Positions 21,001-39,000 of a DNA stretch of 64,000 nt are shown piece by piece (positions within the stretch are counted from its first letter, which is position 1; every line of letters starts with the position of its first letter). The stretch is from Acholeplasmataceae bacterium (GTDB lineage Bacteria > Bacillota_I > Bacilli_A > Acholeplasmatales > Acholeplasmataceae), in NCBI GenBank assembly GCA_963675245.1, contig OY775910.1, forward strand, positions 1,120,001 through 1,184,000. The letters run 5' to 3'. A program made the position numbers.

Positions 21001-24000
21001 ACAATACTAAATTAGTCTTGCTCTTACTTTTGTTTCAGCTTCTTAGAGAGGAATTAGGATGAATTTATATAAAAGTGCATTAAAAACTTTTGTTTTCAAA
21101 ATAGTAGGATTATCATTAGCATTTTTAATTCAAATCTTGTTTGGTAGACTTCTACCAAAAGAATTATATGGAGAATATACCGTTTTTGTTTCTTATCTCA
21201 ATCTTTTTACTATAATAACAGTATTTGGGATGGACACAAATCTGATAAGAGAAATCTCAAGGAGAGATGATGGGAGTAGTTTTTCTTTATTAAAATATGC
21301 GATTATATTTTCAGTAATTTTATCAATTTTAATTTCAACAGTTTTATTTTTTGCAAAATACATTAATATATTCCAAATTAAATACATTATCATGTTTATT
21401 GTACTGCTGATTGGAATTACTATTGGAAAGATTATTGATGGATTTTTACAAGGAAAGCACTTAGTCGAGAAAGTAACAATAGTTAATCAAATAATAAAGA
21501 ATATTTTCAAAATATTATTGTTTTTGTTTTTCAAAGTTATTGGAAGTGATTTATTTTTTGCAACGATTATAAGTCATTTTATTGCAGAATTATTTTCACT
21601 TCTAATAAGAATATTTTTGTGTAAAAATATTGTTTCAAAAAATCATTATATGTTATCTAAAAATGAAAAATCAATATTTATTAGATATTCATTATCGCTG
21701 GGAATTATTTCTGGATTAGTATTATTGATGACTACTATTGATAAATTAATCATCTCAGAATTTTTATCTTTTGCTGATGTTGCAAACTATATGGTTTCAC
21801 AAAATTATGGACTATTATTAAGTGTTTTTGTTATGCCATCAATTGTATTCTGGCCTAAAATATCTCGATGTTTTAGTGATGGAGAATTTAATCAGATAAA
21901 AACAGATCTACAAAATATAGTAAAAATGATTTTATTTCTTACTGTACCTATGTTTTTTTTGATTAGTTTTAAATCGACTAATTTATTAATGATATTTGGT
22001 ATTGATTATGTAACAAGTAATGGAAAATATGTCCTTATTATTTTGAGTTTTGCTGTTCTATATGATGCATTATCAGGACCAATTGGTTCGATTATGACTA
22101 TGTCAAATTATGCGACTTTAAATTTAATTAGTAATATCATTTCTTTAATACTAAACATTGTAATAAGCATAGTTTTATTAAATTACTTCGGTATTATAGG
22201 GGTAGCAATTGGTACTGCAATAAGCATAATATTTAGGAATGTATTTGCTATGGTTTTAGTGAGAATAAAACTTAAAATCATTGCATATGATAAGAAATTC
22301 TTTCTATTATTAATCTTTAGTATATTTTTTAATGTATTAGTATACATTTTTTACAATTCTTTGTTTGATATCAGTAGCTATCTTTTGGATTTAATATTGT
22401 ATTTTATTGTAACTTATTTTATGAATGGACTATTATTGCTAATATTTAAAAAAGAAGTTAAAACACTTATTAGTTCATTTGTAAATGAAGATTAAAATAG
22501 TACAAATGCAAGTATAAACATTTTAAATAATGGAGGATTTGTATGAGAAGGATTTTATTTAGACTAAGAGAACTTTTATTTTTCTTTCTCTCCAAACTTA
22601 TAATAAAAAAGAAGAATAGATGGGTATTTGGTTCCTGGATAGGTGAAAAAGTATCTGACAATAGTAAGTGGTTCTATAAGTATGTTGTTACAAATTATCC
22701 GAGTTTAGATTGTATTTATATAACAAAAGATATATCTGAAATAAAAATGTTGAATTTGAAAGGAGGAAGAGCGTTTAAATACGGGTCTTTAAAGTCTTAC
22801 TATTATATTTTGACAAGCAAAGTAGCTTTGATGACACATGGATATCAAGATTTATCTAGAATATATTTAGTGGGATCTGCTTTTAAAGTAAATTTCTGGC
22901 ATGCTTCAATTCTAATAAAAAAATTGAAATACGAAACCGTAAAGTATAAAGAACAGAGTAATATTAAAAAGAAGATTTCTAGAACTCTTGACAAAATGCA
23001 TCAACATCAAATGTACATTGCATCAAGCATTGAATATCAGAACTCATTAATAAATGATTTTGGAGCAGATATTAGATATATTTATCTATCGGGATTTCCA
23101 AAAGCAAGTCTTTTTAATAACGAATTATCTCCATTACCTTATGCCACCATAGCACATGAAATTTTCAAGACAACTGGTTTCAATATTACTGGAAAAAAAA
23201 TAATATTATATATGCCAACCTATAGAGATGATTCGACTGTTTTTTCATTTTTAAACATGAATAAAAAACAGAATGATCTTATCACACAAATTCTAAATAA
23301 ATTTAATGCTGTTATTTTAGAAAAAAATCATTATGTCGATTCAGTTATAAGAAAAATTGATACAAAAACATCTAAGATCGATATTCTAAATATAAATAAT
23401 GTTAAATATATAGATATCCAGGAAATATTGTTTCGTTCAGATATGTTGATAACAGATTATTCAAGTTCATATGCTGATTTTGTTTTACTGGACAGACCGA
23501 TAATTCATTATGCGTACGACTATGAATACTACAAAAATCGCGATAAAGGTTTTTACCGTGATATTACTCAGTTCGCAGCGGGGTCAATTACATATGATTT
23601 TGAATCATTGATTAGTGAAATATTATTGAATTTAGAACAACCACAGCTTCATAAAAACACGAGAGATTTGTTTATCAAAAGATTTTTGATATATAACACC
23701 TATAATAATTGCTCCAATATATTTAATGAAATAAAACAAAGAATAAATTTTGAAAGTAAACTTGATTAAAATGAATTACCTCACAAACAAAAACAATAAT
23801 CTTATGTGTATTTTTAATTATCAAATTTAATTTCAATAAATTAGCGTTTGTAAGACCATAGGAATAATGCTAAAATATGATTGTTTGGTAACAGAATATA
23901 TAAATATGTATATTTATTAGTATTTTCTACAAAAAAAAGACTATATTTTTAATAAAGATTATGTAATATTATTTTTGAAATGATTTGTTCATATCATAAG

Positions 24001-36000: not shown

Positions 36001-39000
36001 ACCATAATATATTAAATGAAATTAATGATTATGATTATAAACAGGAAATATTGATTGGTGCATTCGAAGAACATATAAAACGAAATGTCAGCCAATCTGA
36101 TAGGGTTATTTTAGTGACATTCAGTATTATTTCTAGACAAGTCTTTGATAAACTCTCATTCATCACAAATAAAGAAGTTATTATTTATGATGATGCGAAT
36201 CCAGAAAAAGAAGACATTGTCAAATTTATAAAATTAATTGATGATTTTAATCCTGATTATGTCATTTCTGTCGGTGGTGGTAGTGTCATCGATTTTTCAA
36301 AATGTCTAATAGATTTCAGTAAAACTCTTGCAAAACACATTGCAATACCAACTACATGCGGAACAGGAAGTGAATCAACAAGATTTGCTGTTTATTATGA
36401 AAATGGTATCAAACAATCATTAAATAAAAATAAAGTTTTGCCAGATGTTGCTGTCTTAGATTCATCATTGTTACAAAGTCTTCCACGAAGTGTTTTAATA
36501 AGTAGTGTTTTAGATGCTTTCGCTCAATCCATAGAGTCATATTGGGCTAAAAAATCAACTGAGACTTCTAAGAAATATAGTTTGGAAGCATTTAAGATTA
36601 TATATCCAATTTTAAAAAAAGGGTTATCTAATGATAAAGAGACATTAGAAAAATTAGAGTATGCTTCTAATTTAGCGGGCAGAGCAATTAATATCACGAC
36701 AACGACATCTGCACATGCTTTATCATATAATATTACTAAATTATTTGGAATCCCACATGGATACGCTGTTTGTATGACATTGCCATTTATTTGGGAAGTT
36801 CATCAATCAAAAATTGAAATTTTTGATAAAATGATGGAAGAAATAGTAGATGCTTCAGAGGTACAAAATAATAGTGATTTAATTATCGAAATCTTCAACA
36901 TTCTAAATACTTATAAGGTTTGGAGAGGTGTTGAATACAATGATCAAGATTTAGACTTTCTTGTGAATAATGTTAATTTAGAGCGTCTTGGTAATAATCC
37001 ATACAAATTTAATAACTTTGAGATAAAAGAGATTTATAAAAAAGCTTTGAATATAAAATAAAAAACTTACGGTAACAAGCCTCTTCATATTTGTGATAAA
37101 ATATTAATACAATCAACCCAATTATTAGGAGGAGTTTCCTATGTCAAACTATGTATTAGCTACTGATTCATGCTGTGACCTACCTTATGAATTAGTCAAA
37201 GAACTTAATCTTGAAGTCATTCCACTATCTGTAGAGATAAAAGGAAAAGTTTATCATAACTATCCAGATGAAAGATATATTAAAACAAAAGATTTTTATG
37301 AAATGATGAGAGAAAAAGAAGTTGCTACAACCTCACTCATTAATGTTGGTGAGTTCTTAGTTTTCTTTGAGCCATTCTTAAAAAAAGGAAAAGATATTTT
37401 ATATGTTGGTTTCTCATCAGCGCTATCTGGTACCGTTCAAAGTGCGCGTATCGCTGCTGAAGAGTTAAAGCTAACCTATCCTGATCGAAAGATTATGGTT
37501 GTAGATTCTCTATCTGCTTCGATGGGACAAGGTCTTCTTGTGTGGTATGTCGCGAAACGTGTGAAAGCCGGTAAACCGATTGAAGAAGTAGAAGCGTGGG
37601 TTGAAAACAACCGTCTAGAACTATGCCATCTATTTACAGTTGATGACCTAGGGACATTAAGACGTGGTGGACGTCTATCTGGTACAGCTGCTTTGTTAGG
37701 TTCTCTACTCAAGGTAAAACCAGTACTACACGTATCAGATGAAGGTAAACTCATTCCTGTTAAAAAGGCACGTGGTCGTAAGACCTCACTTCAAGTGATC
37801 GTTGATCTCATGAAGGAAAAGATAAAAGATCCTGAATCTCAAACCGTCTTTATATCTCACGGTGATGATTTAGAAGATGCGAATTATATTAAAGGCTTAA
37901 TTAGTGAGCAACTTGGCGTGAAAGAATTCGTAATTGGCCAAATTGGACCAGTCATTGGTGCACATTCAGGACCAGGAACAATCGCCGTATTCTTCTTAGG
38001 AAATCCAAGATAACAAGTTAGAGCCACACACCTAGCAGGCCCCCCTAGCTATTTGTGTGGTTTTTTTATTTATTGATGCCAATTATTCTTGTTGGTGGTA
38101 AAATAATAATAGACAAACAATACACAATTGGGATGGAAAATATGAATAAAATATATGTTTCATTTGAGGAAATGAGAACGTTTATGGAAGACGCTTTTGT
38201 GCGTGTTGGCGTACCTTTTGATGATGCCAAAACATGTGCGAATGTGTTACTTGAAAGTGATTTAAGAGGCATTGATTCACATGGTGTGAATCGCTTTAAA
38301 GTCTTTTATATTGATCGGATTTTAAATGGTATTCAAGAAGCGGTCACTCATCTTGAGGTTGTTAAGGAAACCGCGACAACCGCCGTGATTGATGGTCATA
38401 ATGGGATGGGTATGGTAATTGCTACAAAGGCGATGACCATGGCGATAGAAAAAGCGAAAGTGTATGGTTTAGGCATGGTTGTTGTCAGACACTCCACCCA
38501 TTACGGCTTTGCAGGTTATTATCCTTTAATGGCTGTTAAAGAAGGTTTAATTGGGATGACGGGTACAAATGCCCGTCCAGCCATCGCACCGACATTTGGC
38601 GTCTCTAACATGCTTGGAACGAACCCCTTAACCTTCGCGATGCCAACGGATGAAGCATTCCCGTTTTTCTTTGATGCTGCAACCTCCATTGTGCAACGAG
38701 GTAAGATCGAATATTATATGAAAAACGGTTTAGATACACCAGAAGGCTTAGTGGTTGATAAAGCAGGTCAAACACTTACAGATAGCAAGAAAATTCTAGA
38801 ACGCTTAGTTAAAAATCAAGCAGCGCTTGCGCCACTTGGTGGGATTGGTGAAGCACATGGTGGCCATAAAGGTTATGGGTTCGCGACTGTTGTGGAAATT
38901 CTAAGTAGTGCTTTACAATCTGGTGCGTTTCTTCACATGTTATCCGGTGTGTCAGAAGATGGTGGTTCAAAACCAATTCCAGTCGGTCATTTCTTTTTAG

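What a model noticed while it worked through the whole genome (the two positions that open the first line are those of the whole stretch)
22543..37061. Phosphonate (2-hydroxyethylphosphonate) glycan biosynthesis genes in the polysaccharide locus of a wall-less Mollicute
The Wzx/Wzy polysaccharide locus ends in a cytidylyltransferase-PEP mutase fusion, phosphonopyruvate decarboxylase and a nucleotidyltransferase-Fe-ADH fusion, and holds a TagF-like phosphotransferase: a route from PEP to nucleotide-activated hydroxyethylphosphonate and onto a surface glycan.
Evidence so far: PEP mutase and decarboxylase pass NCBIfam cut-offs; best family of the Fe-ADH half is the phosphonate ADH model TIGR03405 (below cut-off); TagF/TarF hit E 2e-22. 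PEP_mutase in 0 of 171 family and 1 of 306 order genomes, the gene pair in 0; GC 23-30%, consistent with transfer. Searches 124, 125: 0 papers for Mollicutes/Tenericutes.
(Added by a program. Inside this text positions count along the whole contig: contig position 1,120,001 is position 1 of the stretch shown here. "Call 12" and the like, gene names such as g00115 and contig names such as C1 are that model's own, and its searches are not shown. The text may have been shortened before it was handed on; [...] marks where a part breaks off. The agent that wrote the report below was given it as the finding of a first reader that could run no searches.)

Follow-up and report, generated by a model that had tools for sequence, protein, structure and literature searches.

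The report
Phosphonate coat genes in wall-less bacterium
A wall-less bacterium carries, at the end of its variable surface-sugar operon, a known kind of three-gene cassette that makes an activated carbon-phosphorus compound, and a teichoic-acid-type enzyme in the same operon is the likeliest but unproven means of attaching it to the sugar coat.

Summary
Observation confirmed. An Acholeplasmataceae genome without MurA, MurD or PBPs ends its Wzx/Wzy glycan operon with a Fom1-like cytidylyltransferase-PEP mutase, phosphonopyruvate decarboxylase and a PntC-like nucleotidyltransferase fused to a PhpC-type reductase. The reductase keeps the reported phosphonate-binding residues, so CMP-hydroxyethylphosphonate (CMP-HEP) is very likely made. 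PEP mutase is absent from the other 306 genomes of the order, but the same cassette occurs in Mycoplasmatota bacterium WC30 (closest relative) and in 8 of 251 sampled genomes of a third small-genome order, and the fusion is common in metagenomes. Low GC is shared by the whole slot in a congener and does not show transfer. The TagF link is open: it is the only candidate transferase and the genome has no TagD or LicD, yet its nearest kin sit beside TagD and it lacks the DYSG motif found in 11 of 13 TagF-like proteins beside phosphonate genes (0 of 21 beside TagD). Known pathway type in a new host; this scan noted like cassettes at least five times on other DNA. The fresh lead is the DYSS/DYSG donor signature.

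The parts
15658..16287 (+). MarR-type EPS-associated regulator, head of the glycan operon
   Evidence: HTH_24; TIGR04176 below cut-off; 79% identical gene heads the same slot in G169
16265..18969 (+). Priming phosphoglycosyltransferase, NAD-dependent epimerase/reductase, GT4
   Evidence: PF02397, PF01370, PF00534
19109..20986 (+). rmlB and rmlD (dTDP-L-rhamnose)
   Evidence: TIGR01181 and TIGR01214 over cut-off
21059..22495 (+). Wzx flippase
   Evidence: PF01943 E 3.7e-19; best locus match is the flippase of L107, whose order is wzx-tagD-tagF
22543..23769 (+). Single-domain TagF-like phosphotransferase; donor uncertain (CMP-HEP proposed)
   Evidence: PF04464; H120 and H263 align with TagF H444 and H584; model pLDDT 88, best fold match TagF TM 0.73; DYSS motif, WHASILIKK loop, PKA for PRN
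24041..24973 (+). GT2 glycosyltransferase
   Evidence: PF00535
25017..26219 (+). Wzy-like polymerase (inferred)
   Evidence: No Pfam or NCBIfam hit; Atlas features 0.99 to clusters with Wzy_C in 11% of members and to a WcaD cluster
26221..27659 (+). rmlA and rmlC
   Evidence: TIGR01207 and TIGR01221 over cut-off
27801..29717 (+). Two GT2 glycosyltransferases, the first rhamnosyltransferase-like
   Evidence: PF00535; TIGR01556 below cut-off
29785..32789 (+). FnlA-like dehydratase, RmlD-like reductase, UDP-GlcNAc 2-epimerase-like: a 6-deoxy-HexNAc pathway (L-QuiNAc type by recalled gene pattern)
   Evidence: TIGR04130 539 bits below cut-off, PF04321, TIGR00236 over cut-off; sugar identity recalled, not tested
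32894..34201 (+). Fom1-like cytidylyltransferase (residues about 7-137) fused to PEP mutase
   Evidence: TIGR02320 over cut-off; EDKVGLKKNS fits EDKXXXXXNS; PDB 5x3d E 4.1e-42
34208..35323 (+). Phosphonopyruvate decarboxylase
   Evidence: TIGR03297 over cut-off
35325..37061 (+). PntC-like nucleotidyltransferase (about 1-238) fused to PhpC-type phosphonoacetaldehyde reductase
   Evidence: Best PDB match of the N-domain is 6pd1; K363, D397, T460, H464, Y468, H478, R554 invariant in 25 of 25 rows and in register with PhpC residues
37141..38013 (+). DegV gene, conserved right border of the variable slot
   Evidence: Present in 9 of 9 congeners; 19 kb downstream of the MarR gene in G169

Best explanation
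The last three genes make CMP-2-hydroxyethylphosphonate: PEP mutase gives phosphonopyruvate, the decarboxylase phosphonoacetaldehyde, the metal/NAD reductase HEP, and one or both cytidylyltransferase domains add CMP (genes and motifs shown; activities inferred from homology, about 0.88 on its own). The rest of the operon builds a rhamnose- and 6-deoxy-HexNAc-containing repeat on a lipid carrier, flips and polymerises it (inferred). The TagF-like enzyme, descended from glycerol-phosphate transferases, has lost its TagD partner and now moves the HEP-phosphonyl group from CMP-HEP to a sugar hydroxyl of the repeat, giving a phosphonoglycan coat on a wall-less cell (inferred by exclusion; the weak step). 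The cassette is one interchangeable filling of a serotype-like slot.
For: Mutase and decarboxylase over cut-off. PhpC residues present, including the Tyr that is Phe in sulfoacetaldehyde reductases. No aminotransferase in the operon; in 80 related mutase loci reductase and AEP transaminase never co-occur (24 and 38 loci). The genome has no TagD, no LicD even with a custom profile that finds a divergent one, one CDP-alcohol transferase and one TagF-like gene, so donor and transferase each lack another partner. Both catalytic His and the fold are kept. The loop that selects the polyol in TarL/TagF (PMC10901376) is remodelled, and the same way in its closest homologue P0002, so this is not private decay. 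TagF-like genes directly abut HEP cassettes elsewhere: L125, L128, L145, L152, L056, L188, L202.
Against: Nearest kin with context (L104, L105; SH-aLRT 96, 89) lie beside true TagD genes. The protein keeps DYSS, as do 21 of 21 TagD-linked homologues, whereas 11 of 13 beside phosphonate genes without TagD or transaminase read DYSG. It has Lys for an Arg held by 83 of 85 homologues. It lies 9 kb from the cassette. Of 24 HEP-type loci only 2 show a TagF-like gene within the flank, 12 a LicD, 10 neither; WC30 uses the same cassette with a LicD-like gene instead. No product or expression data.
Confidence: 0.55

Rival explanations
1. CMP-HEP is made, but the TagF-like enzyme uses a CDP-polyol (CDP-glycerol made by one of the cassette's two cytidylyltransferases, or CDP-methylerythritol from housekeeping IspDF), and HEP reaches the surface by another enzyme, for example through a phosphonolipid and the LtaS-like membrane protein encoded elsewhere.
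For: DYSS motif and TagD-linked kin; two cytidylyltransferases are present where one would do, and one has the TagD fold; the polyol loop has the longer TarL-like spacing; IspDF and an LtaS-like 701-aa protein exist.
Against: The TagD-fold domain is far closer to 5x3d (E 4e-42) than to TagD (E 2e-6); the second domain's subfamily goes with the reductase in 20 of 24 loci against 1 of 56 without it, TagF or not; no TarI/TarJ pair; the LtaS-like gene is unlinked.
Confidence: 0.27
2. The operon is a recent patchwork: tagF lost its tagD and is an orphan, and the phosphonate cassette sits without a matching transferase, so little or no phosphonoglycan is made.
For: The slot is wholly replaced between congeners; wzx-tagF here looks like L107's wzx-tagD-tagF minus tagD; three related cassettes (L200, L203, L205) stand away from glycan genes; substitutions at near-invariant TagF positions.
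Against: All frames are intact and full length; P0002, 45% identical, shares the odd loop; a second sample holds identical pieces of the locus.
Confidence: 0.13
3. The cassette starts a fosfomycin-type small molecule, to which a cell without MurA would be immune.
For: The first four steps match Fom1, Fom2 and FomC; MurA is absent.
Against: No B12-binding domain in the genome, so no Fom3; no tailoring or export genes in the operon; all neighbours are glycan genes.
Confidence: 0.03

Closest known systems
Fom1/Fom2/FomC of Streptomyces fosfomycin biosynthesis
   Same: CyTase-PEP mutase fusion, decarboxylase, PF00465 reductase; HEP-CMP as intermediate (PMC6697681, PMC9088020). That 5x3d is the Fom1 CyTase domain is recalled; the call names it only as phosphoenolpyruvate phosphomutase.
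   Different: No Fom3; second nucleotidyltransferase fused to the reductase; set in a Wzx/Wzy operon.
Pnt pathway, Treponema denticola Tde1415 (PntC-AEP transaminase fusion, PDB 6pd1)
   Same: PF12804 cytidylyltransferase fused to the enzyme that makes its substrate; Arg13 and Lys23 align with the mutated Arg15 and Lys25; glycan-tailoring context.
   Different: Partner is a reductase (HEP), not a transaminase (AEP); NSGxGxR motif; low identity; substrate untested.
PhpC-type phosphonoacetaldehyde reductases (PMC13576164)
   Same: Lys, Thr, Tyr, Arg of the modelled HEP site and Asp/His/His metal ligands in register.
   Different: Gln for the fourth ligand, as in sulfoacetaldehyde reductase; about 16 residues shorter after GGGS; fused.
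TagF/TarF/TarL polyol-phosphate transferases
   Same: GT-B fold, both catalytic His, DYSS.
   Different: Single domain in a Wzy locus; neither PL nor GAF polyol motif; no CDP-glycerol or CDP-ribitol source in the genome.
HEP phosphonoglycans of Stackebrandtia and Glycomyces
   Same: HEP on a polysaccharide (cited in PMC8942020 and PMC13576164 passages; original paper not seen).
   Different: Walled actinomycetes; attachment enzyme not established in what I read.

Membership tests
PEP mutase (Ppm) | Curated equivalog score | tested here: met
   TIGR02320 419.2 vs 319.55; phosphonopyruvate hydrolase 155 vs 374
PEP mutase (Ppm) | EDKXXXXXNS motif | tested here: met
   EDKVGLKKNS; motif per PMC6697681
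Phosphonopyruvate decarboxylase | Curated equivalog score, above sulfopyruvate decarboxylase models | tested here: met
   TIGR03297 432.5 vs 312.5; TIGR03845/6 below cut-off
PhpC-type reductase | Curated model TIGR03405 | tested here: not met
   136.3 vs 423.7; the model is now named PsrA
PhpC-type reductase | Lys157, Thr256, Tyr264, Arg349 and Asp191/His260/His274 equivalents | tested here: met
   K363, T460, Y468, R554, D397, H464, H478 invariant in 25 rows; mapped by spacing to the paper's numbers, not by aligning that sequence
PhpC-type reductase | NADH-dependent reduction of phosphonoacetaldehyde | not testable with these tools
   needs assay
Fom1-type HEP cytidylyltransferase | PF01467 domain fused before Ppm, closer to Fom1 than to TagD | tested here: met
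   5x3d E 4.1e-42; 1coz E 1.9e-6; TIGR01518 33 vs 165
PntC | PF12804 domain, closest solved relative PntC, catalytic Arg/Lys | tested here: met
   6pd1 best, E 7e-7 single, 4e-20 profile
PntC | Preference for a phosphonate substrate | not testable with these tools
   only co-occurrence with the reductase
TagF-like GroP transferase | Fold and two catalytic His | tested here: met
TagF-like GroP transferase | Glycerol-binding PL motif and a CDP-glycerol source | tested here: not met
   WHASILIKK (motif); no TagD
HEP-linked TagF-like group (defined here) | DYSG motif | tested here: not met
   window reads DYSS
Fosfomycin cluster (Streptomyces type) | Cobalamin-dependent methyltransferase Fom3 | tested here: not met
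   no PF02310 match in the genome
Fosfomycin cluster (Streptomyces type) | FomD and Fom4 | not tested
   absent from the operon; not searched genome-wide
Wall-less Acholeplasmataceae | No peptidoglycan genes, table 11, family-level homologues | tested here: met

The most novel reading that the evidence does not exclude
TagF-like enzymes are a missing last step of HEP surface tailoring. They have switched donor from CDP-glycerol to CMP-HEP several times, usually marked by Ser to Gly in the DYSS motif, and this wall-less lineage shows a further, independent switch through a remodelled polyol loop after loss of tagD. Because HEP has both a phosphonyl and a hydroxyl end, the product could be a hydrolysis-resistant, teichoic-acid-like linkage in the coat of a cell with no wall.
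Probability: 0.35. Interest if true: 0.75.

Novelty: new member of a known kind. Interest (0 to 1): 0.48.

Why it matters
How activated phosphonates are put onto surface glycans is described as enigmatic (PMC6697681). This 1.6-Mb genome offers one donor and one candidate transferase, and the comparison gives a residue-level prediction (DYSG versus DYSS) that can be assayed. It also extends phosphonate biosynthesis to Acholeplasmataceae, for which my searches found no report. The chemistry itself is known and the cassette widespread, which caps the surprise.

Tried and rejected
Table 4: rejected; TGA ends 227 of 1042 long ORFs. GC as proof of transfer: rejected. Recent transfer from WC30's lineage: not shown; identities 77/65/51-52% against a median of 50% for 64 best-hit proteins from 200 kb of that genome. 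Sulfonate look-alike pathway: rejected on the mutase motif, decarboxylase scores and Tyr468. Pneumococcal CDP-2-glycerol pathway (recalled) for the NT-ADH fusion: glycerol-1-phosphate dehydrogenase model only E 3.5e-8, no HAD gene in the operon. Promoter/terminator scan at chance level, 118 vs 115 expected. Sequencing runs: no RNA holder listed; contigs of run X1 did not span the stretch and say nothing. The careful TagF tree did not finish; quick and FastTree trees were used, leaving out two long rows (L066, L179). P0002's neighbourhood could not be obtained. Search of earlier findings by the TagF sequence was blank. Literature: searches (no listed paper of 30 held 'phosphonate biosynthesis'; 1 paper, listing only; 0 papers) found no report for Mollicutes; subscription papers are not covered.
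Full report
Observation. Under table 11 the span holds fourteen same-strand genes, part of an operon running from 15658 to 37061. It has a priming transferase, four further glycosyltransferases, rmlABCD, a 6-deoxy-HexNAc trio, Wzx, a Wzy-like membrane protein, a TagF-like gene and, last, three tightly packed phosphonate genes. The host is wall-less: no murA over cut-off, no transpeptidase and no murD in a complete single contig, with controls ringing. Named homologues of its pyruvate kinase are mostly Acholeplasmataceae.

The cassette. Gene 32894-34201 passes the PEP mutase equivalog and has the EDKXXXXXNS motif. Its N-terminal domain matches PDB 5x3d at E 4e-42 and TagD at 2e-6; I recall 5x3d as the Fom1 domain that makes HEP-CMP, an activity described in PMC6697681 and PMC9088020 (passages). 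Gene 34208-35323 passes the decarboxylase equivalog. The reductase half of 35325-37061 scores far below the TIGR03405 cut-off, so I tested residues instead. PMC13576164 (passages) names Lys157, Thr256, Tyr264 and Arg349 as the modelled HEP site of PhpC, the Tyr being Phe in sulfoacetaldehyde reductases. By spacing these are K363, T460, Y468 and R554, invariant with D397, H464 and H478 in 25 of 25 aligned homologues. The fourth metal ligand is Gln. The N-terminal half is closest to Treponema PntC, itself fused to its transaminase. In 80 related mutase loci this nucleotidyltransferase subfamily occurs with the reductase in 20 of 24 and without it in 1 of 56, and reductase and transaminase never share a locus (kin are not independent, thresholds were set against the window's own proteins). 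CMP-HEP is therefore very likely the product; which domain makes it is open.

Distribution. PEP mutase is over cut-off in 0 of 171 family and 0 of 306 order relatives. The closest relative among the 80 best loci is Mycoplasmatota bacterium WC30, with the same three genes and fusion at the end of a different Wzx/Wzy locus; it is sister in the mutase and decarboxylase trees and in a seven-member reductase clade, each with support 100. WC30's order has 2 of 158 genomes over cut-off. The order of G308, with genomes mostly of 0.9-1.7 Mb and with or without PBPs, has 9 of 251 sampled, 8 with the same cassette, the ninth cut by a contig end. The 120 best homologues of the fusion cover 96-100% of it, and PF01467-Ppm fusions are 23.6% of Ppm proteins. 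So the cassette is rare in this order but not new. The congener G169 has the same borders, MarR gene to degV, filled with different, equally AT-rich glycan genes and no phosphonate genes: a serotype-like slot. GC therefore does not single out the phosphonate genes, and divergence from WC30 is not clearly below the genome-wide level: old transfer or patchy retention both fit.

The transferase. The TagF-like protein keeps both catalytic His and the fold. It is the only PF04464 gene of the genome. The genome has no TagD, no LicD (and with a profile that does detect WC30's divergent one at E 2e-13), one CDP-alcohol transferase, IspDF and an unlinked LtaS-like protein. Of 80 metagenome loci with related TagF-like genes, 17 show TagD only, 11 phosphonate genes without TagD or TarI, 4 both and 48 neither within the DNA held. 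So this subfamily is used with both donors. A motif separates them: DYSG in 11 of 13 proteins beside phosphonate genes without TagD or transaminase, in 0 of 21 beside TagD, and in 8 of 38 without visible context, arising at three or more places in the tree. One scan pattern demanded DYSS, which biases the sample toward Ser. In further HEP-cassette genomes, TagF-like genes beside TagD or TarI again read DYSS (3 of 3), and three unlinked ones read DYSG or DFSG. The window's protein reads DYSS and groups with TagD-linked L104 and L105. For it: the loop after the catalytic His, which selects the polyol in TagF and TarL (PMC10901376, passages), has neither the PL nor the GAF motif but a longer, bulkier sequence shared with P0002, and the gene order matches L107's wzx-tagD-tagF without tagD. 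I read this as a probable independent donor switch, at about even-to-modest odds.

Literature. Seen as passages: PMC6697681, PMC13576164, PMC9381506, PMC8931226, PMC10901376, PMC11666461, PMC10868615, PMC9088020; PMC8942020 as part 1 of 6 plus passages and its supplement. HEP routes are 8.5% of 434 ppm neighbourhoods. 'Tenericutes' does not occur in the main texts of PMC6697681, PMC8942020, PMC9381506 or PMC8931226. The genome table of PMC9381506 lists one Tenericutes genome, with aepY but no pepM; that file was cut when stored and 39 of 51 files were not searched. Searches found no report of phosphonate synthesis in Mollicutes, and searches listed none naming a TagF-like HEP transferase in title or abstract start; subscription papers, including the 2013 and 2014 Yu papers and the Fom1 paper, were not seen. 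Earlier notes of this scan describe like cassettes in five other genomes, four pointing at a TagF-like or teichoic-acid-type transferase; they are unchecked and not counted as support.

Verdict. Real, a known pathway type in a new host family; CMP-HEP synthesis about 0.88, attachment by this TagF-like enzyme about 0.55. Interest 0.48, carried mainly by the testable donor signature.

Noticed in passing
window 30816-32789: The reductase's TGA stop is followed three bases later by the in-frame ATG of the 2-epimerase; it reads as one 657-aa frame only under table 4.
   Followed up: partly
window 8832-10559: Phosphoglycerate-dehydrogenase-like domain fused to an AP_endonuc_2/CbiR-like TIM barrel, behind a class-V aminotransferase.
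   Followed up: no
window 10589-15237: pRiA4b ORF3-like gene, two tyrosine recombinases and an AAA_21 ATPase pair just upstream of the glycan operon.
   Followed up: no
window 38055-39248: Ldh_2 gene whose best NCBIfam match is L-sulfolactate dehydrogenase, below cut-off; GC 39.5%, probably unrelated to the cassette.
   Followed up: no
window 39416-50944: Three EAL-domain proteins of about 860-880 aa within 12 kb.
   Followed up: no
L027:6476-9952: 1158-aa fusion of nucleotidyltransferase, Fe-ADH and two LicD domains directly before a CyTase-mutase: reductase, activation and transfer in one chain.
   Followed up: partly
L206:2214-4487: LicD domain fused to a Wzx flippase in a HEP-cassette locus.
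   Followed up: no
L189:225-3854: Stand-alone mutase-like gene below cut-off, after LicD-like, methyltransferase and GT2 genes, in WC30's order.
   Followed up: partly
L014:6996-7739: LicD-like protein missed by Pfam PF04991 but found by a custom profile at E 2e-13; a sulfatase-family gene lies in the same operon.
   Followed up: yes
L200, L203, L205: The three-gene cassette stands among housekeeping genes, with no glycan genes in the fetched flanks.
   Followed up: partly
L208:15213-19178: In the congener the slot ends with CTP_transf_3, HMGL-like and an unknown gene where the window has the phosphonate cassette.
   Followed up: no
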